This document shows, piece by piece, positions 39,326 to 64,000 of a stretch of DNA of 64,000 nt (positions are counted from its first letter, which is position 1; each line of letters begins with the position of its first letter). Both the position numbers and the translations under genes were made by a program. This DNA is from Lytechinus pictus. Lineage: Eukaryota. The DNA lies in the NCBI RefSeq assembly GCF_037042905.1, contig NC_087252.1:2420001-2484000 (forward strand), read 5' to 3'. Under the pieces are notes generated by a model, which was not told the DNA's origin, searched no databases, and worked only from the letters and a program-made list of their open reading frames with translations.

Positions 39326-39910
39326 GTGCGAAGACATATCTTGAAGAAGCTTTTGGATCAGAATGAAAATGCGTTGATGATGGTATTCTCGAGAATGTCA
39401 CCCGTACCCTGAAGATCCCTCGACTCAAAGACATCAAGGGAAATAGAATTACAAATCATCGTAACACCGTTGCCAACTTCCATTGAAACGCATAGCCCGC
39501 CCTCTACGGCAACACATTGAATGTATGTCACCATGGAGCCTGTGAACCTCACCAGCAGCCACAACCCGTACGATGATTACTACGCGACATTCGGTAACTA
39601 CTCATACTCATCCTCAACAGATTACTTCTACGACCTTATCCTTGAGATGGTCTATCCCAGAACGCACGAATGGGTCATTCTGGGGTTCTTCCTGCTCCTG
39701 CTCCTCTTGGCGCTTGGCGGAAATTTCTTGGTAGTTTATGCCGTACTGCGGAACGAGCACATGCGTTCGGTTACCAATTACTACATCATGAACCTGAGTG
39801 TTGCCGATATCCTGGTGTCTTTGATCTGTTTCGGACCGACTGCAGTTGGTGACGTTACGGAAACCTGGTGGCTTGGAGCTACAGCTTGCAAACTAATACC
39901 CTACTTTCAG
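39326..39910 (+). CDS. HCRTR: Orexin-type receptor coding exon 1 (5'UTR 39326-39520, N-terminus, TM1-TM2, start of TM3)
   Basis: Acceptor TACAG at 39321-39325; ATGs at 39521 and 39533 (GTCACCATGG); donor CAG|GTAACT at 39910. Confidence 0.95.
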
Positions 39911-42900
39911 GTAACTAATATCAGGTATTTAATAAAGCTGTAGGCCTACATAAGTTACGAGAGACTTTACGAACAACAAAGATGCTAATTCAACATGAAT
40001 GAAAATTAAGTGATAACATATACCACAAAAAAGGATCCATAGTCGTTTGTAAGCCGTTCGTAACTTGCGATCAGCTTTATGAAACACCTTCCATCACAAT
40101 CATATCATGTTAGCATGTTAACGATTTCGTCAGTATAAAGAAGTGTCGCATGCTGCCTGTCTGTCAGACAAGAAACATGAAGAAATTGGCATGTTGTTCC
40201 AAACACTTAAACCCACCATGGTGACAAGTTTGATTATTATCTTTCATGTGTGATATAGCCTTTTTAATATTGTACACAGTTTCAATGTCGTGGAATGTCT
40301 TATTTTCATAAATTGTACCTGATCGCATTTATTCATTGTTTTACATTGGGGATACATGACACTGGTTTATGCGCATTTTTTATTTTTGTATTTTCATTCA
40401 TAAATTCAAACAATGGGTATTCAATATTCGATATTCCCTTTTACTGTCCAACAGAAAGAAATATAAGGCCATCCACTGAGGCACTTTAAGTTATGAACAA
40501 ATTGTATACATCTCGAATAGGCTGTCACTTACCATGCTTATGCACCCTTATCTTGGTAAGGGACTTATGAATCAACATTTGTTGTGATGCCGAAGCACGC
40601 CGGGTCTGTGGTATGTTAAATTATGACGTGAACTAACGAAGCTACGTTAAAACAGTCATCCCATTCATCTTCTTCTCTGTGACGTTTTGCTCTACTCACG
40701 ACATTCCGACAGATGAACAACACTGAAAGGCTTGGGGTGTTTCACACAGATGTTAAAGAGTGTGGCTTGGAGTAGCACTTATATTTCATTTGCGTGCGAT
40801 ATTAACACATCATTGCATTGGCCAGATCATACGCACGAGACGCGCACTTCCTGATTAGTATATCCTCACCGAAGCCTAACCCTAAACTAACAAATCTTAT
40901 TGCAACACTAACCCTAACCCTACAACTTAGACGAAATAAAGTCCGGGGCAATTGTCGCCGGGGTTAATGTCGAGTTACCACATTTTAAGCTTTGTTAATA
41001 ATTTCATTAGGGTTTTTTTTTTATTTTTTATTTTTTTTATTTCTATAACTTTCATCATAAATAAAGCTCAGCAACCGAAATGCAAGATATTCTAAATTAT
41101 ATCAGTGGGCAATATTGATGTACGTTTCTTCTATCGTAAATCAGCTATGAAATTACAGTGAGTCCATCTCATATCCTATCAGAAATATTTCCGAATGATA
41201 TCAATCTAACGATCAGGACATATTTCTAATAAATCACAATTGAAAAACATGCACTGACATTCATCACGACTTCCCTACTCTTCGTTTTATGATCCCATTG
41301 GTTGCTTAACTATTGGACCAAGCGATAAATTTTGAACTTGACAGCTCCAAGTTGAGTTGACTCGGTCACAATATACGCACTTATATCAATTACCATTGGT
41401 TGATTAAGAAGAGGCCGTGCATGCATGTTTGCCGTGTAAATAAACAATAATAGCTGTGTGAATGTTACACAATGTTATGTGACTTTCACACCTTGTCGTG
41501 TGCGTTTTACACGATGATTTTTACACAGTTCTTTGTAAATTTGACACAATATGACGAAACCTGGCGCTAAACAGCTGAAGCATTTTTGGTCTTTTCCATT
41601 ATTGTCCCCGATCTTCATCTTTCATTTTTTGGTCAATATTTGGTAAATTGCATTTTAACGATTGTCTTAACATGATCTAAAACATACCTGAGCTCTAAAA
41701 ACACAAGAGTTTGACAAATCGGAAATGGAGTGTTTTCACTTTAAAAAAAAACCCACTGTACTTCATTGGACCCTTAAGAGGTGATCTAAATCGAATTACG
41801 AAAATAATCAAACTATATGGAGTTCGACAGTATGCGATGAAGACTGCATCGAGTACGGTAGTATATGGGGGCTTGCCTGTATCCTCTCTGCATAATTCTC
41901 ATTTTGCACTCGGTGATGGAATATTTTTCATGACTTGGGAAGAGTCTATAAAGTGAAATTTATTGTTTCTGAGACATCTCCCCATTACCACACATAAATG
42001 GTTCACCCGTCTATACACATCTGTCTGAAGTTCATTATCTTGCATGGAAAACACACCGAATATAAGTATGAAAATTATATTAGGTCATTTGAAAATAAAA
42101 CACATAGAGACTTTTTTAATAGATATAAGAAAGCCGTTGTTAAAAAAAATCAACTAAACTAAGTTTGATTCATGTGTTATTACATATTGAGTATGATATG
42201 GATAAAACAACACAAAGCGGAAGAAAACAAAATCTTGCAGAGACTTGTAATATATCTGTGACCAAAGAAATTATCATTTACTAAATCTCCTGGAGGTACT
42301 AATATAACATAGAATTAGTGTATGGATGAAATTGAAAAAAATTTCCGTTCACTTTATATTTCACTTTTTTGAAGCACTAAAAAAGATTTCCAGGCGCGAT
42401 TTTCTTAGGTTTCATTTTAATGACATATCACAGGCATGGGTAACAAGTGGGACCTTGTAGCTCATATTTTTTTTCAAAGTCGAATCTGCTGTCTTTTTTG
42501 TGTTCCTTATGATGTTACGATACTGCAACAAATAATTAAACAAATGGTCAAAAGAATTTTAGTTATTAAAATATCTTCTTCTTTCCTATTTATTTACATG
42601 AAACAAATGACAAAATAAAAATAAATACTGGGCTATCTTACAAATCTTGAAGAATCAGGTCTGGCTAGTCCACAAATGTATATTCCAGTATTAAATCCAA
42701 ATAATGTCCAGGTTGGCTGGCGAAGATTCATTAAATTAAAGTTCACAATGCTGGCGATGATGAGATTTATGTTAAAACACGATGGATGATTAGAGTCACT
42801 GTAGTGAGTTGAAATGTCTGTGAAGACAGGACGAAGTTGATGATGATAAACATTCGATTTCAGGAATCCATGGGTTGAAAAATGTCCTTTTGAACAGTTT

Positions 42901-45900: not shown

Positions 45901-48900
45901 CATAATGATCAACACTGGGGCTAACATGTTCCAACTTTCTTTTAGCGGAAGCACTTTAAATCTGGACACAACATGGATCCTCAAAATAAAATCCTCACCA
46001 TTTTCAAGGAGACACCCTTAGTCTTTTGTGAGAGAACATCGGGATAAGACGAATTTGTTGACACAAAGAAAACGCAATAGTCTCCCTTCGGACCAACCGG
46101 GAAAGGCTTTTGCATTCATCAAATTGTCACTTCCGTATTCTCAAACCACTTTTACCAAGAAATTCTCGCATTTGAATCTATTTCAGGGTATTTAAAATAC
46201 AAGAAGAGGTGGGGTATTTTTGTATTCTAAATATGTACAATGTGGTGTTGTGTTATCTTTAGAAATTTGGTATTTAGTTCGCGAGAAATCACACAAAAAC
46301 ATTGCGACACTTAATGAACTATTTTGGATTACAGTAGAAAAAAAGTTTGATCAATTTTGCTAGATAACAACCGACTATCGTTAGGACTTGTGTTATTGGT
46401 GAGTATGTTTTGTGCGGTTTTAAAATAATAATAATAATAATAATAATAGATGCAATTTATAAGGCGCCAAATCCATTAAAAATATAATGCTCAAGGCGCA
46501 CAATGATATTACTTTTCAGAGTGAGATTTGTACCTTCTTCTTCTGCTTCTTCATCGTCATCGTCATCTTCTCCATCCTCTTCATCTCCTCCTCTCCTCCT
46601 TCTTCGTCTTTTTCTTCTTCTTCTTTTTCTACTACTACTACTACTTGTTCTTCTTCTTCTATGTCTTCTTTCCTTCTTCTTCTTCTTCTTTTTCTTCTTC
46701 TTCTCCTTTTTCTTCTTCTTCTTCTTAATCGCATTTTTGTTCTTCTCATCCTTTGATTTAATTTACTTATTATAACGTATTTATTTCCTACGTTTCACTG
46801 CTGCTTTTTTCTTCTTTTTTTCCAGCACGTGACAGAATGTGTATCGATTTATACTTTGACTGCGATCGCTGCTGACCGGTACCTTGCCATCTGCCACCCG
46901 CTGAAATTTCGTATCCGGGCTTCACGAACGATTTTCATTATAATCGCCGTTTGGATTTGGTCTTTTGTTGCCGTTTTACCACAGGTGAGCTATTATTTCA
47001 CCCCCCCCCCCCAACAAAAAAAGGAAAGAAAGAAAGAAAAATTTGATTTTAATAAAATAAGGTAAATAACACAAGGACATCACTGAAAGTATTATCGATG
47101 TAAACCAAGAAAATATTTGTTTTACAAGCGTATCTCGCCATAAGTTGTTGCCGTCAGGGAACTATGCCTTCTTCTGTTATCATATATGTATTTATATTTT
47201 GATTACAATTTTTTTTGTATAATTCATATTGTAAAATGATATTTATTGTGAAAATTGGAAAAAAATCAATGTTTATTTTAATTGAATTGAAGTAATGATT
47301 TTCTTTTAAAAACTTCGTTTAATTTCATAAAAGAGAATTCACATCCGGGTCCGTGTGCTAATGGAGGAACTAATGACGTCATCTTTTTGTTTTTGTTAAT
47401 TGGAATGTGAAATAGCATTGATGCTTCCCTGAACATGTGGTTTTGTAATTCTATTGAAGAGCTGCCCTATTGACAAACCTAACAGAGTTCAAATAGCTAC
47501 ATAAGTTACATCACAAAATACCAAAAATACGGGTATATGACATCATCGTCTCTCTCATTTGCATACCACCCACGTTGGATATAAGACTCATTTTGTAAAA
47601 ATAAACGATTTTCTAGCAGTCATACTTTTCCTTTTTTTAACCCATATTTATCAATTATCAGCTTATCGCTCGTTTCATTTTTATCTCTTCACAAATCGAC
47701 TTTTTGTTGGGTTGAACTTGACGGGGAACTTGACCTTTCAGGGTACTCTTGCTTGCCCTTGTTTTTGTTTTCTTGTATGTTTATGTCAGATACTAGTAGT
47801 TTCCATTGTCAAATATAACTTATGAAGCACGTGTTAACAAGGAAAACACAACCATCCCAAACACATACTAGCCGTACTAGCCAATCTTGTTTTGTTTGAC
47901 TGCAGGCAATTTTCTCAGAATTGGAGTATGACCGGCACACGCCCTCTATAAACAGGCCTGTCTGGTTGGCCAAGTGTTACGAGGTTAGTTAAAAGAAGTT
48001 GTAAAAAAATTTACTACTAGTCTACTTTGTTACTACTTCTGTACTTGTCTCTCTGAATCATAATGCAATTTTAGACTTATACGCCGATTTGTAATACTTG
48101 TATTCTAACTTTGTGTCATGTTTGTTTTGGGATATGGTAATACTGAGAGAATAAAACGATTTGAATTTGAACTTACAACAATAACAAGAATACCAATAAA
48201 CACACACTACTACTACTACTACTAATACTACTACAACTATTTCTGCTGCTGCAAACTAGGAATATATCGTACTTTCGAGGGGCTTCCTTTCCTACCTGCA
48301 CAGAGTTTCTTTGCAAACCACTCCGTTCTTCCTTTTTTCTTAAACTTAATTTGACAAAGTCAGCTATACCTAGCTTATAGACCATAATCATGATATTTAT
48401 TCACTCTTCTATTATATTTAAGAATTACTGTGATGGAAAAGCTTTGTGATCATGGTGATATAACTGTGTAATGTTATATTACTTTGTTTTATGTGAATGC
48501 AAAGGCAGTAAATACATGCAAATACTAGAAAATAGTTAATTTTTAATTCAAGATACAATTCTTTAACTGCTTTAATACGTTTTTGATCCCCAGACTGGAT
48601 GGCACAATTCGTTATGGCAAAAGGTATATTACGTAAGCATCGTTCTTCTAACCTACATCCTACCACTGTGTGTCATTGTAGTCACATACTCAATGGTGAG
48701 ATCCTCAAATTTGTAATATCGAGTTAAATTATGAATATTGGTTTTAGGATAAAGTATGTGGTAAAAATGAATTTCATGAAATAAACTGTACCAAAGTAGC
48801 TGGAAAGTGTTAAAGAAAACGCAACTTAGATTTTGTTTCTGTAAGATCTTGCAATAACTCGAATGTTAATGAATGAAATTAAATCAATTTAGGGCTAGAC

Positions 48901-51717
48901 TAGTTTTACAAAGAATTCCATATATTTCACTTCACATGTATATATTTTAGCAGATGATCTAATATGTTTACACTCTAAAGACTGAAATGTTTAATAAACA
49001 ATTAAAAAGGTTGGAGGAATGACAACCTTTTCTAGATGTTACATTTACCACTTTATATGGTTCGACCCAACAATTGAATTGTTGGATTCAGCTTTATGCG
49101 AGATATGTACCATTTAGAGAAGTTTGTCACTCAACTAACCTTTCAATGATGATTTAACATTTCAGTTTTAGAGTGCAGGGCCAAGTTCAAATATCACGGC
49201 ATCAGAGGGATATTTCTTTGAACATTTTATCACATGCGTCGATTTTTTTTTCTTTATGATTTACATATTATTTACTAATTTTCCTTCCTCTGGGGAATAG
49301 TCACCACGAAATCATCAGATTTGCCTTATTTGATTACACCTCCAGGTCTGTATTCGGCTATGGTCGGCCATCCCCACTGAAGAGACGAGCCGAAAGAAAC
49401 CGACGGACTCGAACAACGAATCGCGCCATCAAAACAGCGGGAAATCCAACCACACCGGTAATGGTGCGATCCGAGGGGGCAGTCGCTCCCGGTCTGGACC
49501 GGTTAAAACCAGTACGGAGACACAGGTGGAGTCCAGACGGAAAGTAGCCCGGATGCTAATCATCGTAGCTTTCATATTTTTCATCTGTTATCTGCCAATC
49601 AACGTCTTAAATACTCTCAGGTACAGGAAAATTACGCTTTTGAAATTTTGAGCTAATTTAATTTGGGGAAAGAATATAATAATGAATGCAATCAATATCC
49701 CTTCAGACTCCATAGAAAAGATGACGCACCTGTTTCTATATATGTTAAAGGTTTTTCTGTGGTTGCTGTTATGTTTGCTTTGGTTTTACAATGTTTTTGA
49801 GGACCCCCCCCCCCCCCCCCCCACAAAAAAATAAAATAAAATAAAAAATAAATAAGGGCGGATCTATCTTTGTTTCAATAGTGGGGAGGGGGTTAGCTTG
49901 ACCAGTTGTTTTAACCCAATCCCGATGAGCTGCGACAAAGTGAGTCCTAGCCCGCCCTCCCCCTCCATTTTTATACTTGTGCAACCTTCGTCAACAGGGA
50001 AGTGGTGTTGGTGTTTGTTCACCCCCCCCCCCCCCCCTTTTTTTTTTCTTTCTTTTCTTTGGGGATGTGATCGTTTGATTAAACCCCTACATCTACATGT
50101 GATCCACACTGAAACCATCACTGAATATTGCTTTTTCGAAGGGTCAAGTAATAAGTTACGTCTGTATTGCTCACATAACTCATGTGATGTAATGAGATAA
50201 ATATGATGATGAAGATGACGATTAACTCTAAAAAATGATTGGTCAAAATTACCAATCCGTCGGTGAATATCGCGTCCGACCAATAAATACGGTCAAATTA
50301 ATCAAACCATTGGTAAGAATTTATTTTTAGATTACCATATTCCACAATATATTAGTTACCGTGGGCAATCCTTTTGAAGGGTGAGTTAAGCTAATTTTTG
50401 TTCATCTTTATCTTCTCGATTAGATACATGCAAGTATTTTCTAAGAACCTCAAACCGAATCCCGGGGACCGAAGCAAGATCACCCTTCCTTTCACGGTCG
50501 CTCATTTTCTAGTGTATATCAACAGCACAATTAATCCAATCATCTATAACTTCTTAAGTGGTGAGTATGCCTATCAAGGCTTATCTCGAAGTGTTGGGTT
50601 GCGGTGCGTTCCTGTGCGGCGCACAAACGCAACCCTTTTTGCCCCCCCCCCCCCCCTTGTCCTACCTGCTTGTGTCGAAAGGATGCGTTTACCCGCCATT
50701 CCGTTCTCAACATACCTTTTCGAGACGAGCGTTGTGAAGGGGGATCCCGAAGTGTTGCGTGAGCGCACAGCAGCACAACGCTTCGAGATAAACCGCCTGT
50801 CAATAAGCCCAGTGCAATCTACACGATCCATTTCCGATCCGATTTAGAAATAAAAATATGATAGCATTTGAAATATAGATATACCAAATGACCAACGTTC
50901 CGAATAGTGGCTTTAGTACGAAATGGAATTGCTGTCTATTTCGAACTTCTATGTAGGTTGAAAGACGACTTTTGTTCCATATCGTAATTACGTCGTCATC
51001 GGCTACGATCTGAAGCCGATCTGATGTTAACTGGGACCACGAGGCTTGAAGTAAAATATAAGTTTTATTTTAGTATTTCGAGCATTAGTCCGATCGTAGA
51101 GTATCACAGATTTCGCTTATTGACGTTTGGTTTGTTTTCAAGCACACATATCACTTTTAACAGAGGATGCCTACTTTTAGGATATATGTATAAAAAAGAA
51201 TAAACAAGCAAAACAAATCAAACAGAGCAGCAGTTCCGTCTTAGATATATTGCGAAAGACAATACATCGTCCGCTGTGGAATGATCACGTGACTGCCGTC
51301 TCGATTCATTGTTTTGTATCTTTGTATTAGGCACCCATTCCCTCTGACAACACATTAAATACTCTCTGTGCTAGAATCATTAGCACGAAAAGTCAAAATT
51401 TTCTCCCTTTTGGGGCTGATATTAATCAGTTTTCTCTTCTTATAAATCATGTAATTGTATTGATTCACGTTGCTGTAGTTATATGATTATCTTTTCCTTT
51501 CCCGCCAGCTAAATTCCGACGAGAATTTCGAACCGCCTTCGCAAACTGTCCATGCTGCCCTCAACGTCCAAATGACACAACTGCCATCACGAGTACGGCA
51601 AGTCGACGCACCCAACGGCCGAACCCAACGGGACGAACGAACAGCACCGAGTACATGCAAATGTCAAGGGTTAATACGAAAACAGATCCAAGTCAAGGTC
51701 TTCTGACCTCAGACTGA
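39521..51717 (+). CDS. HCRTR: Orexin (hypocretin)/allatotropin-type class A GPCR, complete: join(39521..39910,46826..46984,47906..47983,48594..48695,49346..49620,50424..50560,51509..51717) = 449 aa (445 aa from the better-Kozak ATG at 39533)
   Basis: All six introns are GT-AG with matching phases (0,0,0,0,2,1). All seven TMs are present with family motifs: YPRTHEW, GN, NEHMRSVTNYYIMNLSVAD, DVTETWWLG..CKLIPYFQ, DRYLAICHPL, TYILPL, RRKVARML, CYLPINVLN, AHFLVYINSTINPIIYNFLS, KFRREFR. These closely match recalled HCRTR1/2 sequences. Confidence 0.95.
42513..43419 (-). mobile_element. Solo LTR (~907 bp), Gypsy-like 4-bp TSD, in the first coding intron of the receptor
   Basis: TGTTA...TAACA termini flanked by ATGA at 42509-42512 and 43420-43423. 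Minus-strand TATA (plus TTATATATA 43059-43067) and AATAAA (plus TTTATT 42589-42594) are in the expected order. Confidence 0.7.
46530..46730. repeat. (TTC)n/(TCA)n/(ACT)n microsatellite
   Basis: Directly visible. Confidence 0.95.
46826..46984 (+). CDS. HCRTR: Receptor coding exon 2 (TM3 DRY, TM4): HVTECVSIYTLTAIAADRYLAICHPLKFRIRASRTIFIIIAVWIWSFVAVLPQ
   Basis: TTCCAG acceptor, CAG|GTGAGC donor, 159 nt, phase 0/0. Confidence 0.95.
47906..47983 (+). CDS. HCRTR: Receptor coding exon 3 (ECL2): AIFSELEYDRHTPSINRPVWLAKCYE
   Basis: TGCAG acceptor, GAG|GTTAGT donor, 78 nt, contains the ECL2 Cys. Confidence 0.9.
48594..48695 (+). CDS. HCRTR: Receptor coding exon 4 (TM5): TGWHNSLWQKVYYVSIVLLTYILPLCVIVVTYSM
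   Basis: CCCCAG acceptor, ATG|GTGAGA donor, 102 nt, TM5 Y..P motif. Confidence 0.92.
48971..49175. mobile_element. MITE with CACTCTAAA...TTTAGAGTG termini; similar-ended element at ~59677-59896
   Basis: Terminal and subterminal inverted repeats (CTGAAATGTT / AACATTTCAG). Confidence 0.65.
49346..49620 (+). CDS. HCRTR: Receptor coding exon 5 (ICL3, TM6): VCIRLWSAIPTEE...QVESRRKVARMLIIVAFIFFICYLPINVLNTL
   Basis: CTCCAG acceptor, CAG|GTACAG donor, 275 nt, phase 0/2. Confidence 0.95.
50424..50560 (+). CDS. HCRTR: Receptor coding exon 6 (ECL3, TM7 NPIIY)
   Basis: ATTAG acceptor, GTG|GTGAGT donor, 137 nt, phase 2/1. Confidence 0.95.
50578..50794. mobile_element. GC-rich MITE just inside receptor intron 6
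   Basis: TIRs GGCTTATCTCGAAGTGTTG / CAACGCTTCGAGATAAACC. Confidence 0.7.
51509..51717 (+). CDS. HCRTR: Receptor last coding exon (helix 8, Cys cluster, Ser/Thr-rich tail): AKFRREFRTAFANCPCCPQRP...GLLTSD*
   Basis: CGCCAG acceptor, phase 1, TGA at 51715-51717. AATAAA candidates lie near 52029 and 54570. Confidence 0.93.
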
Positions 51718-55815: not shown

Positions 55816-57634
55816 TGACGGACCTTAATTTTTTTTGTTCGATTGACTGAAGCTCCGAAATAATCGACTATATTTTAATGTCGCATTAACTAACTTTTGG
55901 CAAATTGCCACAAATTTTCGGATTTACACACTCCCCTCCCCCTTTTTCGTACTGAAACGTCTTTGTATATGAAATTGATTTTTATTTTTAGGAATAACTA
56001 TCCTTTCCAGTAATGGACCTTATTTAGTTTTCGTATTCACCAACCTATATGGAATATCGAACCTTATTTCCATATTAGAAATGAAAATAAAGTCCTTCTG
56101 ATCAACGAAATATAAGACTTAAAACCACTCAAAACACATTTACACACTTTCATAATTCAGCTGTGAAAAATCCCATCATTGTGCTGGTGCCAAGAAAATC
56201 AATGAATACATAACCATTTGCTGGAAAGAAAAGAAAACCCAGTTGTGTGTCTCAGCAGTCAGTAGTAGTAGAAAAAAAGAATAGGAAAGGAGGAAGTGTG
56301 AAATATTATTTTCTGAATATTATATCAAGTGTCGAAATTTTTGCTCACCCTCTTCACTCACAAGTTTTTATACATTTTGCCCGATAAGCCTCATCTTAAT
56401 GTTTGGCTCATTATGCCACTGTTCACAGTGTACAGTGTGGAACACAAAGCGAAATTATCTTAGCTCAATTTAAATTTGATTTGAGTTTTTCTTTCTTTTT
56501 AGTATACACACGAAAAATACAGAAATACAAATCAAGAATAAACAAGCAAAAAAATGAACTTACAGTTGTGAATGTGTAATATCGATACGGACTTTTTGGA
56601 TTTAAAAAAAAAAATTAGTCCTCAAAATTATAAATAATGTTTGGCTGGTCACTATACCAATTAATTTCGATTCCTTAAAATTCAGAATGTGTACGAACAC
56701 ACTGTGAAAACTGTGTGAAAAATTCTCCACAGTTTCGAATTTGAGCATAATCCCTTTAAACTTTTATCTCTATCTTCGCCAGTCGGATTTTGGATTTAAA
56801 TTTGGCAGTTAATACTCCGTTCATGTGGTTATTATTGTAACTGTCCTACCTACGTCAATTCAGTTACCTTGTGGATTTATACAACAATGAATTCACAGGA
56901 GGCTATGGCCACCGTGACGAAATAAAGAAGAAGAGAAGCAAATTATCCCGTGACTTTGTTTATTTGCATTTTTGGTAATAAAAGTCTAATTTGACGGATA
57001 TTGATTACGTGCAAGAAATGGAGCGCGCACACCTTTTGTTTTCAAAATGGTCAAATCAAACAGAATTTACAAGCTGTTTGCTCTCATTGGGCGTCTTTAT
57101 TCGGACAATTAATTTTGTTTTTCTTGTTCCATATAAATTATCATTAACCAAACAAACTCACCGCTGCACCTTTTCTTTGTTAAATTAAATGACTAATAGA
57201 AATGGGAATAGTCAAGGTCGTCTCGTCCTTCACATAATTTTTTATTAAATTTTTTGTTGGTTTAAACAAAAAACTTTTTTTTTATAATTTTGAATAGAGT
57301 GCCAGTCTTTGCGATTATAGTCATTGCAAGGTCAAGTTTATTGTCGCCTCCTGTTGTCATAATCTATTACGAATGGAAAAAAAAACAATGTCATCAACAC
57401 TTACAGTTTTGTTAACTAAAAATTGAGGTATTCTCCTGTTATGATAACAATACCACAATAAATCAAATAATAATCTAGTCTCTTCACGCTAACTTTATAT
57501 TAGCCCCCCTCCCCCTGTAAAAAACAATTTCTTCTTTACATAGCGTGGGAAAAATCAGAACAAAGTTGAAATCGATTAAATTCATTTGGGTTCAGCACTT
57601 ATTTGTTCGGTAATTTTCATTGTCTTGTAGAGAG

Positions 57635-57748
57635 TATAAATACTGGCAACATATCTAGAATTGGTCAGATTCATCACTAATTTATTGCGAATTAATTTCT
57701 TCTCCTTTTCTCGGTTGATTCGCTAGAAGTTTAACCTCATCGAGCATC
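57635..57748 (+). promoter_or_regulatory. TATA box (57635-57642) and non-coding exon 1 (~57666-57748) of the small secreted-protein gene
   Basis: TATAAATA, an Inr-like TCAGATT ~30 nt downstream, and donor ATC|GTAAGT at 57748/9. Splicing to 58897 gives GCATC-ATG, with A at -3. Confidence 0.65.
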
Positions 57749-58896
57749 GTAAGTTTTTTTTCTACGTTCGATATATTTTTTTTTACTTTCAGATAGTAAC
57801 TTTTGATTTTTATTTGATATTATTTGATTTGACTGATGACGAAAAGTGTATCTTGCTCAGAACACTGCATCATTTCAGGAATTCAGTCATTGTCTTACAA
57901 TATTGTTATCAATATTCACGTTGCCATGGTTGCTTTAAATATTTCTTACCTTTCTCTTGAGAATAAATCTTGAGAATAAGTTGACACTTTAAAACAGAAA
58001 TTGTTCAATTTTAATGTTCAAGTTCTTTTTGCTTGTTTCTTTTTTTTTTTTTTTGGTGTTGCTTTTTTTTATTGGGATATGCATGCTATTCTCAATAGAG
58101 CCATGTCCTGGACTAATTTGTATTTTAAATAAGTAAATAAATAAATAAAGTCTAAATTTTTATATCGGGATTTTTTTTCATACATTCTGACAGCATTTTA
58201 TTTGAAAATTTAGTTCATCTCATCATTTTGCTGTTCGTGTTGGAATAGTAGGGGGAGGGGGTTCGGGAGCATCACACTAACTTTATTTGCTTAAAATCAA
58301 TCATTGGTCTTCTTTATCATGTTTGTAAAAACAAAATAGATATCTTCTAATGTCAAATAATTACGATCTTATAGTGTCATTCTCACTTTTAAACGCTAGT
58401 TTACCGATTTCTCGAATTGTCAAACTGCTTTTTGATGAAATATTCCTTGTCTAGTATTCATCAGTTCTATGATTTATGATAATAACAGTGTGCATTTCAC
58501 AATTTAAATTGAGACCCTCTGATCTTTAGGATAGTTGTGGGTGGGGTTCGTGTTAAAGGCCAGTTTTGGGGTCCTGGTTACCCCCCCCCCCCCAACCACC
58601 ACCCCCTATTTCCTTTATCTTTATTGGTCTCATTTCCCGTTCCTTCATTTTTTGTATACATGATGCTACTATTTTTTTCTTTTTATGAATCTGTGTATTT
58701 TTATTGTTATATTGTTTTATTGTTTTATTTCTATTGGTAAACAGTCACATATTTCAGTCTTTGGACTGCTTGCGATTGTATATTTTGATATTTTTATAAT
58801 AATAAAATCCAATTATGTATATTTTAATCAGAATCTTTACCTTTAAAAGTATCTGATTCATAGTGCTGTTAATTAATATTTATATTCCCTCAACAG

Positions 58897-61800
58897 ATGA
58901 AGACGTTCCAGCTTTCTGTTATTCTCTTCGTATCCATCTGCCTCCTGATAAGCACAGGACAATCTGAAGCACGCCGTAAGAATTTAATTTTTTATTCACT
59001 TCAAGACAACGATCTTTTGTCACGTTGATTATAATTGTTTTCTTTTTTATGTATATCTTTTTTATTATTATTGTACACCACAATTATATATACAAGGGCG
59101 TAGGCTGGGAGGTGCACCCTACCGCTGTGGCAGAGGTGTTCCGACACTGGCAAGCAAAACTAAATGTGTACCCTTTCTTTTGCTTTCAACAGCTGATTTT
59201 CCAAACTTTAGTTCAAGGATGTGCACCCCCATGCGCAAACACGCCCTTGTAGTTACTGAGCTCTAATCATTTTGCTCGGTCGCAAACTTATTCTCTTTCC
59301 TCGCAGTAGCAACAATTCATACAACGGTCACATTTTTTCTACGGCGGCCATACGGCGAGTCGAAAACAGTCGTTTTAACATTTTTTGTACCAGCTAAATA
59401 TAGGTGGTTTGAATAAAAATGAATAAAACGGTTGTTTTCGACTCGCCGTACGGCCGCCCTAGAGCGAATGTGACCGAGGTATAGTTTGAAGCTTAATTTC
59501 GCGCATGCGTTTTGGGAGGGGAAGGGACATAATCAGTCGGTAGTATCAAGACGTTTTGATCTAGGTCTCAAATCCCTTATCAATTTATCCTGGACACAAC
59601 TCGTATGCAATTGGCTATATTATATGCATTCGAATGCTTTCACTATTTCAAAAGAGACCTTTTTTAGCTACTAATATACTCTATACAAACGTTTACCCGA
59701 TATATGGTAAAATGGAAACATGCATGTTTTCTGGGTAAAGTACCAAATTTACTTTTACGCAATATTGCGTTGAAATGTATCCTCATTAAAACATGCATTT
59801 TGCCAAATATCAGGGGAAAATTACCCAGCAAACGTGCATGTTCCATTTCTTCCCAATACTGTGTAAATGTTTACCTCAATCTTTTTTTTAGAGTGTATGG
59901 CTTGCGTTTACATGGGGGGGGGGGGGGTTAGGGCCAAGCACCTCAAAAACGTTCACTACCAAAAAAAAGAGAAGGAATAAGAAGAAGAAATGAAAGGGAT
60001 GCAATACCATTTTCTAACTATTTTGTGCAAACATATCTCAAAATTAGATTTTCGTAATTAAAACGATCCACATGTTTGCTTGGTCGCTTTGCTCGCTCGC
60101 AGCTATTAAGACATTGTCTGCTATCTCAGAGTCATTACGCTACTGAATGAAATACGGATTTAGTTTTTTATTAGTCGTGTGTTATATCCTCCTCTCGTTT
60201 TAACCACTCGCAATACCCTTTTCCGACGCGATTGCGCGTTTCTAAACAATCGTAATAGTCGACCCCCCCCCAAAAAAAAAAAAGCTTTGAAGTATCAACT
60301 ATACTTGATGATATGGTGAGATATTTTCTCTTGCCATGTCGCTTTTATAGCGTTATACAGTGCGTATCAAAAAAAAACGGGACAGATTTGAAAAGTCTAT
60401 AAAATTTTAGTTTCAAATTATTATGTCTATATTTTGGTGTTAATAGGTGCTCTAAGGTCTTGTCTTTCAAATGTTATTAAAAATTTTTAGTTTTGTTCAT
60501 GCTTGAGCGAACACGGGACGTTTTTGTTGGGGGTTCAAAAAGAGGCTTGCGCCAGAATTGCAGAATATGAGTAATATGATGATCAGACTTCTTGCTAATT
60601 TGCAGACTTCCTCTTAACCTTTTCATTATCTTTGCCATAATTTTCAAATCATGCGGTCAAAATTCATTATCAGATCTATTTATTTGCTTGAATTATTCTG
60701 TTATTTCTTTTTAATATGCTCTCTGTTAGCTTTGAATATTCCTTCTTCAAGCTAAAATTATTTTTTTCAACCTAATTATGGGAGAGCATGGATTTTTAAT
60801 TCAAATCCTTTCATTATGTGCTACAAAGGTTATGGTGCCTTTTGAACAAAGCCACACAGATGGGCGGGCGCTCGGGTTGCCCCCCCCCCCTCAATTCAAA
60901 AAAATCATGACCAAGAAAAAAAAGTGGACAGGAAATAAAAGGAAAGATAGAAAGTAAAATATGATATTATTTTCTAAATATTATGTCAAAATCTATCACA
61001 AAATTTGATATTGTAATTAAAAAAAAGTGGGAATATTTGCGTGCTCACTTCGCTCGCTCACAACTTTTTAATACATTTTACCCGATCTGCCATATCTAGC
61101 TCCTTCAAAATTGACTCAATACACCATTGTCATTGAAAGACATGAATCCCTTCCTGTGTTTCCTGTCAAGCAATTAAACTTGGTCAAGGAATTAATGACC
61201 CATTGAAAAATAGATTCATGTCTTTTAAAGGTACATAACATAATTTATTTCACATAAAAAAACGATTTGAATAATCACAAGTTTTCCTAATTAATAATTC
61301 AAATCTTCTTGCTTGGGTTGACAAAAAAAATCTTCTTTTCTCAGCTACTTATGAAGGAAAATTAAAAGGTAAGAGAAGTTTGAATGAAAAAACAAAATAA
61401 TTCAATTAAATAAATAACTTAGTAAATGAAATTTGACAACATAAATCGAAAATTGTGGCACAGATAATGAAAAGGTCAAGAGGAAGTCTCCTGATTAGCA
61501 AGAAGTCTGATCATTGTATTACACATATTCTGCAATTCTGGCGCAAGCCTCTTTTTGAACCCCCAACAAAAACGTCCCGTGTTCGCTCAAGCATGAATAA
61601 AATTTTTTTTTTTAAATTGCATTTCAAAGATAAGACCTTAGAGCATCTATTAACACCAAAATATAGACAACATTATTTGAAACAATTTTTTTTTAGACTT
61701 TTCAAATCTGTCCCGTTTTTTTTATACGCACTGTAGAGTTGACGAGATGATATCATAAAAAGTCATATGTCGTTTGCCATGGAAAGATGCATGCTCTCTT

Positions 61801-62980
61801 AAAAAAGTAAGGCAAAAAAGTGCAAAATTTGTAACCGTCATTGGGCAACATACTGTTCACACAACTATTGGTTAAAATCTGTCCAAATTGGGTTATAAAA
61901 ACTAATACAATTGGGTAATGAATTTGCTAAGTTGGATAATAAATGCTCAGAGTATATAAATATATATTGTTGGATTAAAGCATGAAAGTTTCAACCTTGT
62001 TTCTCTTAATATTACTCCAACACGTGGAATATCTACCGAATATATATATATACATTATATATTCCCGGCAGAGATATTTTTCGGCATCACCAATTTTTCC
62101 AAAGGGTAGATAGCTCTGGGGAACCTTGATTTAAGCTACGCCTACCATTGTTCTCTTCATCCATTTCTTTACAATATTTAAATAAAAGAGTTGCCAAAGC
62201 TGTTGTACATGTATAACTTCACACACATTGATTTTGTATACTTTCTCCCATACGTGTACTGTATCAAAGGTAGCTCTTTAAAGCTTTCGTATCCCCCAAA
62301 ACTTTTACTCTCCAATTTCCATCAGCAAGAAATTTCTCCATGCTGTGTTTCACTGTACCCTGGTGCGGTAAACGGTTACTTGGTCGCAGTAATTCCTTAA
62401 ATGCACTGAGTGCCGCTAATGGTATCTCGAGCTATAAAAGCCGGGGCAATAATAGTTGCGCCTTGTATTCTTTGTCAAATACCACTATTTCAATCCAGCA
62501 TTTATTATTATTACTATTATTATTATTATTATAATCATTCTTCTTCTTCTTTCTTCTTCTTCCTCTCCTTCTTCTTCTTCTTATTATCATTATTTTATGG
62601 TTATTAATATCATTATTATTATCATTATTATTATTATTATTATTATTATCATTATTATTATTATCATTATTGTTATCATCATCATCATTATTGTTATTAT
62701 TATTATCATCATCATCATTATTCTTACTATTTTTAATTTTTGGAAGTTTTTGGAACAATTTCCTTTGTTTTTATGTTATATGTTATATGTATTTTGATGT
62801 TTTATGTTTGTTTCATCAGGCCATGGTCTGTCTAAGGATAATATGGCAAAAGAGAATTCTCTGCATCCTCGTGAGAAGCGATCTTCATCTTCATCTTCAT
62901 CTTCATCTTCTTCTTCTTCATCATCTTCAGAATCTGATTCTGATTCAGCAGAGGTAACGACCGCCGCTCCCGCTCCTTAG
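58897..62980 (+). CDS. Small secreted Ser/Asp-rich preproprotein, join(58897..58975,62820..62980) = 79 aa: MKTFQLSVILFVSICLLISTGQSEA-RRHGLSKDNMAKENSLHPREKR-SSSSSSSSSSSSSSSSESDSDSAEVTTAAPAP*
   Basis: CAACAG acceptor immediately before the ATG. Classic signal peptide (MK, hydrophobic core, S-E-A cleavage). Donor GCC|GTAAGA is phase 1 and matches acceptor TTTCATCAG at 62819. R-X-K-R furin site directly precedes the poly-Ser. Confidence 0.82.
59092..59251. mobile_element. Small MITE with ACAAGGGCGT/ACGCCCTTGT TIRs (Harbinger-like)
   Basis: Perfect 10-bp terminal inverted repeat. Confidence 0.55.
60358..61733. mobile_element. Non-autonomous Tc1/mariner-like element with ~300-bp TIRs, TA target duplication
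   Basis: TA|CAGTGCGTAT...ATACGCACTG|TA, with long high-identity inverted repeats (e.g. CATGCTTGAGCGAACACGGGACGTTTTTGTTGGGGGTTCAAAAAGAGGCTTGCGCCAGAATTGCAGAATATG). No transposase ORF. Confidence 0.92.
62320..62530 (+). mobile_element. 5'-truncated SURF1-like SINE with (ATT)n tail
   Basis: AATTCCTTAAATGCACTGAGTGCCG...AGCCGGGGCAATAATAG body resembles recalled sea-urchin SINE 3' halves; ends in ATT repeats. Confidence 0.6.
62500..62725. repeat. (ATT)n/(TTC)n/(ATC)n microsatellite
   Basis: Directly visible. Confidence 0.95.
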
Positions 62981-64000
62981 TACTGATGACAGTGCAGACA
63001 GTGATACTAGCGATTAGCCATCATCTTGGTTCAAGGCAACTGCGGTGACTCAATGGATCCTTGAGGAACTCAATCTTAAAAGGCTCTTAACGGCTCATGT
63101 TAACTATATAACATGCCCCTCTCACTTTTAATAGCCCCCCCCCCCTCCCCTCTAAAGTGACACTACTCACGAGACAAAGCTCCTGCATGGATTCACATCC
63201 GGGATAGTTGTTTGATCATGTGGTTCACCCTTTTGACTCTTGGGTCGTATTGACCCGGAACCGGTCCGATGTGACCTCTTCATGGTCAGATCTTACCTTT
63301 TCCATGTCACATAGACAATTTTTCATGTCATTTTCAAGAAAATATTGTTAAAATATCCAAAATAAAAAATTTGTCAACTTCCTAATCCTCTTTTGGAATC
63401 AGACGACTAGTCAGACAATGCTTGCATAAAATTAGCCTTATTCCCCATCATTCATCTTCATAATTATACGCAATGAGTATATTTTTAATTAGTTTCATTT
63501 TGTTAACGAAATATGCCGTATTCATTCTTTTCTTTGGAGGGAGTTAGGGAGGGACTTTCTTTATCTTTCTCTCCCTCTATCTCTCTATTCTCTCTCTCTC
63601 TTTGCTGTTGGTTTTTTTCTTTATCCTGTATTCCAAGACACATATTAAGAACCGTATTAAGATTAAATTGAAGTTCAAACAGTTTGTCGTTTCTGAGAGT
63701 GTTGTTGTTGTGGTTGGATATGTACTTACATTCTTTTATTGTACCATGGATTGATTTATTTTTTCTTTACTGAAAATTTCTCATAGAAAATATCAATAAC
63801 GTATTTGGTATATCTAATACACTGTTTTAAGCACGTTGTTGAAGTCTTTCACTCTAAAAGTTCTTTAAATTTTCAACAAGTTGTTAAACAATGATTTAAA
63901 GTTTTGGCAATTGTTGTCAAAGTGAAGGGATTCATAAGCAACGTGCTTAATATTAAAAGAAAAGCATATAGGTTGTGTTTGCATGATTTAAATGCAAAGT

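What the first reader, a model, noticed from the sequence alone, without database searches (positions are those of the whole stretch)
57635..63017. Hidden three-exon gene for a small secreted, convertase-processed poly-serine/acidic peptide
Seen in sequence: TATA box, a non-coding exon 1 ending ATC|GTAAGT, an exon 2 that starts exactly at ATG and encodes a 25-aa signal peptide, a phase-1 intron, and an exon 3 encoding a short pro-segment ending REKR, then Ser16-ESDSDSAEVTTAAPAP. The ORF track does not show this protein. Established: R-X-K-R is the furin/PC consensus, and the secretory kinase Fam20C phosphorylates S-x-E/pS, so the terminal SSE could prime phosphorylation along the Ser run. Inference: the product is a ~32-aa highly phosphorylated polyanion, a candidate Ca2+-binding biomineralisation (skeleton/tooth), adhesive or matrix peptide. 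The layout (non-coding exon 1, signal-peptide exon 2, acidic Ser-rich exon) parallels vertebrate SCPP genes, but the intron is phase 1 rather than phase 0, which suggests convergence. I do not recognise it as a named gene.
Basis: partly seen in the sequence, partly recalled or inferred. Interest (0 to 1): 0.85.

Follow-up and report, generated by a model that had tools for sequence, protein, structure and literature searches.

The report
Sea urchin secreted poly-serine peptide gene
A spliced gene with no database match, also transcribed in a related species, encodes a small precursor that is likely secreted, cut and phosphorylated into a 32-residue, strongly negative peptide that would most likely bind calcium and control mineral growth in the sea urchin skeleton or teeth, though where it is made is unknown.

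Summary
The gene is real. Both predicted splice joints appear in transcript contigs of two runs from two studies. A second organism transcribes an ortholog with the same exon 2/3 joint, synonymous changes at the signal-peptide end, in-frame indels and the same stop. The 79-aa precursor has a signal peptide, a 22-aa pro-segment ending REKR and a 32-aa product whose 19 serines all fit a Fam20C S-x-E/pS cascade. No homologue or published peptide was found. Cleavage, phosphorylation, tissue and function are untested, and REKR was not covered in the second species. A mineral role rests on analogy (about 45%). It is not an SCPP (phase-1 intron). New here: directly behind the stop, the +1 frame encodes a further acidic Ser/Asp 12-mer, far beyond chance. 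This is most likely a lost tail, possibly a frameshift extension. The scan noted a similar design elsewhere in this genome (e1-9369119). Verdict: a new member of a known kind.

The parts
57635..57642 (+). TATA box (TATAAATA); candidate start site near 57667, 32 nt downstream
   Evidence: Sequence. X1 contig reaches 57678. The organism B contig in X9 carries about 85 nt upstream of exon 2, matching a start near 57664 if there are no indels (arithmetic).
57667..57748 (+). Non-coding exon 1 (5' end inferred; covered from 57678)
   Evidence: Joint 57748>58897 in X1 and X15; no ATG
57749..58896 (+). Intron 1 (1148 nt, GT..AG)
58897..58975 (+). Exon 2: predicted 25-aa signal peptide (cleavage after S-E-A inferred), one Arg and one base of the next codon
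   Evidence: 3 of 3 differences in its last 24 nt in organism B are synonymous
58976..62819 (+). Intron 2 (3844 nt, phase 1, GT..AG), rich in dispersed repeats
62820..62881 (+). Rest of the 22-aa pro-segment, ending in the predicted convertase site REKR (62870-62881)
   Evidence: in organism B only 62820-62848 is readable (two replacements, then 23 identical nt)
62882..62977 (+). Predicted mature 32-aa peptide: Ser16, acidic block with two S-x-E seeds, Thr/Ala/Pro tail
   Evidence: organism B is 3 nt longer between 62848 and 62952 (X9) and 12 nt longer in the Pro/Ala tail (X5, X7, X9), both in frame
62978..62980 (+). Stop codon TAG
   Evidence: 0 differences and 0 gaps in contigs of X1, X15 and X4 over this place; no difference listed in organism B
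62979..63017 (+). Out-of-frame (+1) acidic 12-codon stretch STDDSADSDTSD with its own stop: lost C-terminal tail or frameshift extension
   Evidence: (0 of 200000 random draws, 1 of 200000 shuffles)
62981..63667 (+). 3' UTR to at least 63641; likely polyadenylation signal ATTAAA at 63662

Best explanation
This spliced, transcribed gene encodes a 79-aa precursor that is likely secreted, likely cut after REKR by a furin-type convertase and likely phosphorylated by Fam20C, giving a predicted 32-residue polyanion that would bind Ca2+/Mg2+ and most likely regulates calcium carbonate deposition in skeleton, spine or tooth. Shown: exon structure, splicing, reading frame, an ortholog in a second organism. 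Inferred from established motif rules: signal cleavage after residue 25; convertase cleavage; processive phosphorylation running N-ward from two S-x-E seeds, one for each register, up to 19 phosphoserines (net charge up to about -40). Inferred by analogy only: stabilising amorphous calcium carbonate or inhibiting and shaping calcite growth. The acidic 12-mer behind the stop is most likely the old C-terminus, cut off by a one-base insertion before the two species split.
For: Junctions in 2 of 4 runs. Ortholog transcripts in 3 of 3 organism B runs laid: 3 of 3 changes at the exon 2 end synonymous (chance 0.016); 2 of 2 coding indels in frame against 1 of 7 main-contig UTR indels (Fisher 0.083). 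19 of 19 Ser reachable by the S-x-E/pS rule. Fam20C phosphorylates polyserine such as phosvitin, and S. purpuratus has two Fam20C genes (PMC7948968, passages). An urchin Fam20C was found in tooth matrix (PMC2830187) and is a direct Alx1 target (PMC7719703, passages). Known urchin mineral proteins use phosphorylated Ser/Asp tracts (UTMP16, PMC2758014, passages; phosphodontin). Zero exon depth in two raw-read RNA runs against high contig depth in X1 fits restricted expression (contig depth is a poor measure).
Against: No tissue or stage information for any run. No peptide like it in Tables 1 and 2 of the S. purpuratus test and tooth phosphoproteomes, although that search used gene models and the peptide has no Lys/Arg. 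REKR is not covered in organism B: the X9 match stops at 62848, before the masked repeat at 62875, which suggests divergence there. No Alx1-type TAATNNNATTA site in 56600-58896; one TAATNNATTA at 57360 (motif recalled). Poly-phosphoserine also serves glues and yolk. TCT and TCA repeats arise freely in this genome (intron microsatellite 62496-62734), so the run length alone means little.
Confidence: 0.45

Rival explanations
1. The same secreted phosphopeptide is a component of an adhesive, mucus, cuticle or other extracellular coat, cross-linked by Ca2+/Mg2+ bridges as in tubeworm cement; the Thr/Ala/Pro tail may be O-glycosylated.
For: Polyphosphoserine proteins Pc-3A/B and Mefp-5 work this way, and urchin footprint adhesive is 45.5% inorganic (PMC4275877, passages). 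Restricted, sometimes high expression.
Against: The urchin tube-foot phosphoprotein named in that review is nectin. A 3-kDa peptide with no Tyr, Lys or Cys offers nothing for covalent cross-linking.
Confidence: 0.2
2. It is a stand-alone 'mini-phosvitin': a soluble carrier or buffer for Ca, Fe or phosphate in gonad, egg or coelomic fluid, not tied to skeleton.
For: Polyserine and an RXRR convertase site occur together in insect vitellogenins (PMC2999396, passages); phosvitin is a cleaved polyserine Fam20C substrate.
Against: No vitellogenin or other Pfam match in either coding exon, and no uptake domain in 79 aa.
Confidence: 0.13
3. The acidic 12-mer behind the stop is still used: a share of ribosomes slips +1 at the Pro codon before the stop and makes a 44-aa product with two acidic blocks joined by the Pro/Ala linker.
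For: Coding-like composition (0 of 200000 draws; 1 of 200000 shuffles; the only plus-strand hit among 127924 twelve-codon windows). No difference shared by X5 and X7 is listed in its 39 nt, against 39 in the next 418 nt. A minor X5 contig has deletions starting at 63019, two bases after its stop. Organism B reads CCC-UAG-U, where tRNA-Pro could re-pair.
Against: Conservation is borderline (Fisher 0.064; 0.17 against the proximal UTR), and 19 table rows were not shown. Organism A reads CCU-UAG-U, a poor re-pairing. No stimulatory structure (z -0.30). +1 shifts are rare in animal genes (own knowledge). A recent loss explains the composition equally well.
Confidence: 0.07
4. The precursor is neuropeptide-like: the segment between the RR after the signal peptide and REKR is the active peptide, and the serine/acidic part is a spacer.
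For: The segment is bounded by basic sites at both ends. An orexin-type receptor gene lies upstream.
Against: Its first two residues differ in organism B and the match ends after 23 more nt, while the signal end and C-terminal part are better kept. No Gly amidation signal, no Cys, no similarity to orexin by inspection. The neighbouring receptor is no evidence.
Confidence: 0.07
5. The transcript is non-coding and the reading frame is an accident of a TCT/TCA microsatellite.
For: No protein record anywhere; similar microsatellites lie in the intron just upstream.
Against: A unique signal-peptide exon, synonymous changes and in-frame indels in the ortholog, and an ordered signal / basic site / acidic layout.
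Confidence: 0.04

Closest known systems
Sea urchin P16 / L. variegatus UTMP16 (PMC2758014, passages read)
   Same: Small, signal peptide, phosphorylated Ser/Asp tract, echinoid
   Different: UTMP16 is about 160 aa and membrane-anchored with an SSD/SDD tract. This product is predicted to be soluble, released by a convertase and nearly pure serine. No alignment to P16 was run.
Phosphodontin, S. purpuratus tooth (PMC2830187, parts 1-4 of 6 read)
   Same: Secreted, acidic, serine-phosphorylated, no predicted fold
   Different: 35 Glu-rich repeats with one phosphate each and over 400 aa; none of that repeat is present here
Phosvitin and vitellogenin polyserine tracts (PMC7948968, PMC2999396, passages)
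   Same: Polyserine, Fam20C substrate, released by cleavage; an RXRR convertase site occurs in the insect precursors
   Different: Those are parts of very large yolk precursors; here the tract is its own 79-aa gene
Vertebrate acidic SCPPs (DSPP/phosphophoryn, statherin; family features partly recalled; phase rule from PMC6732285, passages)
   Same: Non-coding exon 1, signal peptide in exon 2, S-x-E sites, acidic disordered product
   Different: Phase-1 intron here against phase 0; no sequence match; invertebrate
Tubeworm cement protein Pc-3 (PMC4275877, passages)
   Same: Polyphosphoserine chemistry, possible Ca/Mg bridging
   Different: Annelid glue protein; the peptide here has no Tyr (Pc-3's Tyr content is recalled); no adhesive-tissue data

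Membership tests
SCPP | Phase-0 introns | tested here: not met
   Intron 2 is phase 1; rule from PMC6732285
SCPP | Non-coding exon 1 and whole signal peptide in exon 2 (recalled) | tested here: met
SCPP | S-x-E Fam20C sites | tested here: met
   Two S-x-E seeds in the sequence; phosphorylation itself not shown
SCPP | Descent from SPARCL1 within a vertebrate gene cluster (recalled) | tested here: inconclusive
   No Pfam or sequence match and no paralog in the window, but such searches are weak for short low-complexity proteins
P16/UTMP16 | C-terminal transmembrane segment | tested here: not met
   Product ends in a Thr/Ala/Pro tail and a stop; UTMP16 anatomy
P16/UTMP16 | Location at mineralising syncytial membranes | not testable with these tools
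   No tissue data
Phosphodontin | 35 repeats of an 11-12 aa Glu-rich unit | tested here: not met
Phosvitin/vitellogenin | Polyserine within a vitellogenin precursor | tested here: not met
   Complete 79-aa frame with stop and 3' UTR; no Pfam match
Secreted acidic phosphoserine-rich mineral regulators (functional kind, not a family) | Signal peptide and clustered Ser/Asp/Glu | tested here: met
Secreted acidic phosphoserine-rich mineral regulators (functional kind, not a family) | Phosphorylated in vivo, binds Ca2+, present at a mineral front | not testable with these tools
   Needs experiment
Amidated neuropeptide precursor | Gly before the basic cleavage site | tested here: not met
Programmed +1 frameshift at a stop codon | Slippery P-site codon, conserved +1 frame, stimulatory element | tested here: inconclusive
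   Re-pairing possible in organism B only; conservation borderline; no structure

The most novel reading that the evidence does not exclude
A sea urchin mineral-regulating phosphopeptide whose length and charge are set by a programmed +1 ribosomal frameshift at its stop codon, giving a short one-block form and a long two-block form from one mRNA.
Probability: 0.07. Interest if true: 0.85.

Novelty: new member of a known kind. Interest (0 to 1): 0.5.

Why it matters
If phosphorylated as predicted, this is a minimal, gene-encoded phosvitin- or phosphophoryn-like polyanion in an echinoderm. Proteomics built on gene models and trypsin would likely miss it: the frame is under 100 codons, no protein record was found, and the mature part has no Lys or Arg. 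It would link the urchin Fam20C, already tied to the skeletogenic network, to a defined substrate. At 32 residues it can be synthesised and tested directly on amorphous calcium carbonate. It would also be an independent arrival at the SCPP-like gene layout. The orphaned acidic tail records either a recent truncation or a rare animal +1 recoding site.

Tried and rejected
No whole genome is held, so paralogs could be sought only in the window, where tblastn and blastn found nothing but the gene itself. Homologue searches were all empty: exon 3 as it stands (28-91 aa, 0 hits at E<=0.001 in 1.84 billion representatives, Atlas features, Pfam); exon 3 read on into the +1 tail (35-112 aa, 113-2000 aa, 0 of 30 candidates at E<=10, 0 of 615 metagenome stretches confirmed); a degenerate pattern for the tail. 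These searches have low power for a short low-complexity query and never included the signal peptide, so they do not show absence. The Atlas was not searched for the extended form. Literature: four 8-residue motifs in full text gave 0 papers; topical searches listed no description of such a gene. Subscription papers and supplements (for example tooth and skeletogenic-cell transcriptome tables) were not seen and may list it. The Cozza 2018 polyserine paper is not held and is cited only through the review. Alternative splicing into the +1 tail is rejected by inspection: that frame has a stop at 62955-62957, and no acceptor AG of the right phase lies between it and the tail. An assembly error at the stop is rejected: contigs of X1, X15 and X4 match with no gap. 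A retrocopy or DNA origin of the joints is unlikely, given zero depth in single-copy intron and flank bins. Of 20 runs listed, 8 were laid. Structure prediction was not run (composition implies disorder). I did not establish the species.

Full report
Observation. Exon 2 (58897-58975, 79 nt) joined to exon 3 (from 62820) gives a 79-aa frame that ends at TAG 62978-62980. Exon 1 has no ATG. As a chance control I scanned both strands of the 64 kb for an ATG followed by a basic residue, a hydrophobic core and a GTRAG donor; the only hit is exon 2 (a simple rule of mine, not SignalP).

Splicing. Of 20 runs listed, I laid 8. In one search, contigs of X1 and X15 (two studies) contain both joints, 57748>58897 and 58975>62820, with GT..AG ends. 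Their RNA status is not on record, but single-copy intron and flank bins have zero depth, so they behave as RNA. The raw RNA runs X18 and X19 (same species label, about 6% of each read) have zero depth in the bins holding the three exons. Contig depth ranged from about 6 (X4) and 12 (X15) to over 1300 (X1). The tool warns that this is a poor measure of expression, so I take it only as a hint of restricted expression. No tissue or stage is known. The transcript runs from at least 57678 to at least 63641, with ATTAAA at 63662. The serine run has the window's length in X4 (77 letters across the masked repeat) and, by arithmetic, in X15.

Ortholog. All 3 organism B runs laid at 80% likeness hold a related transcript, about 91% identical in the 3' UTR. 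In X9 the loose end before 62826 is the 3' end of exon 2 joined to exon 3 at the same phase. Its 3 differences in the last 24 nt of exon 2 are all synonymous (chance 0.016). The first two pro-segment codons change (His to Tyr, Gly to Arg) and 23 identical nt follow. The match then stops at 62848, so REKR is not covered and its conservation is not shown. X9 is 3 nt longer between 62848 and 62952, and all three runs have 12 extra nt in the Pro/Ala tail (two allelic forms). Thus 2 of 2 coding indels keep frame, against 1 of 7 main-contig UTR indels (Fisher 0.083; three deletions of a minor X5 contig were left out of that count). The stop is in the same place. Each test is small; together they favour a translated gene.

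Organism and neighbourhood. No tool named the species. Earlier scan notes call this genome a sea urchin and point to Lytechinus (e1-9919159, e1-9839153; not tested here). Upstream on the same strand lie exons of a rhodopsin-family receptor, whose first exon's best 12 PDB matches are orexin receptors. Nothing links it to the peptide. There is no paralog in the window. The scan noted another small acidic precursor with an RKRR site on other DNA of this genome (e1-9369119); it was not returned as a look-alike of exon 3 or exon 2, so it is a similar design, not a close copy.

Mechanism. Inferred from motif rules: signal cleavage after residue 25, a 22-aa pro-segment removed at REKR, and a 32-aa product of 2.9 kDa and pI 4.05 with 19 Ser and 4 Asp/Glu. 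Applying the S-x-E/pS rule repeatedly modifies 19 of 19 Ser. The SSE seeds one register of the run; the S-A-E further down seeds the other through the two S-D-S steps. Fam20C phosphorylates polyserine such as phosvitin even without Glu, and S. purpuratus has two Fam20C genes (PMC7948968, passages). One was found in tooth matrix (PMC2830187, parts 1-4 of 6), and fam20C is a direct target of the skeletogenic factor Alx1 (PMC7719703, passages). The product would be an extreme polyanion. Urchin mineral proteins UTMP16 and phosphodontin use the same chemistry, which is why I rank mineral control first (0.45). Against this: no expression site is known, the peptide is not in the two phosphoproteome tables (searched against gene models), and the same chemistry serves glues (PMC4275877, passages) and yolk (PMC2999396, passages).

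One base out of frame, overlapping the stop, codons 62979-63014 read STDDSADSDTSD and end in their own TAG. By a rule set after seeing it (at least 5 Asp/Glu and at least 9 Asp/Glu/Ser in 12), 0 of 200000 random draws and 1 of 200000 shuffles qualify. It is the only plus-strand hit among 127924 windows; the other 47 hits are minus-strand readings of simple repeats or of this gene's own serine region. It reads as the natural end of the peptide: acidic block, Pro/Ala linker, acidic block. Both organisms have the stop in frame, so it is no assembly error, and no splice route reaches the frame. The simplest account is a one-base insertion before the two lineages split, with too little time for decay. 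The bolder one is a programmed +1 shift. For it: no difference shared by X5 and X7 is listed in these 39 nt, against 39 in the next 418, and a minor X5 contig has deletions just after the second stop. Against it: the conservation is borderline (Fisher 0.064; 0.17 against the proximal UTR), 19 rows of the table were not shown, the codon before the stop suits slippage only in organism B, and there is no stable downstream structure. I put frameshifting at 0.07.

Comparison with what is known. It works like the secreted acidic phosphoserine proteins but fails membership of each named family tested: SCPP (phase-1 intron against phase 0, PMC6732285, passages), P16/UTMP16 (no membrane anchor), phosphodontin (no repeat) and phosvitin (no vitellogenin). 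No homologue came, and four peptide motifs gave 0 papers; some searches were seen as search listings. These negatives are weak for a short low-complexity protein, and subscription papers and supplements were not seen.

Verdict. A real gene for a predicted secreted poly-serine peptide, with no record found and an ortholog in a second organism. It is a new member of a known functional kind, with function unproven but easy to test. Interest 0.5.

Noticed in passing
window 39521-39943, 46757-47065, 49334-49651, 50395-50847 (+), probably ending near 51717: Exons of a rhodopsin-family GPCR; the first exon's best PDB matches are orexin receptors.
   Followed up: partly
window 62061-62269: Degenerate copy of a very abundant RNA: about 17,000-21,000-fold depth on one strand in raw runs X18 and X19, with loose ends showing a tRNA-like T-loop. 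Likely a tRNA-derived SINE transcribed elsewhere; no tRNA by ARAGORN and no Rfam match there.
   Followed up: partly
window 59323-59479: Palindromic high-copy repeat (MITE-like); weak Rfam microRNA matches far below gathering scores; high depth in all four runs.
   Followed up: partly
window about 60490-60570 and 61525-61600: By eye, a long inverted repeat pair about 1 kb apart inside intron 2, probably the ends of a non-autonomous DNA transposon (an opposite-strand joint 60400/61667).
   Followed up: no
run X7 record 8 versus X9 record 10, laid at window 62952: The X7 contig has 382 letters upstream of 62952 against 299 in X9: either a longer 5' end or a longer serine run in one allele of organism B.
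   Followed up: no
window 62496-62734: Compound ATT/TTC/ATC microsatellite just upstream of the exon 3 acceptor.
   Followed up: no
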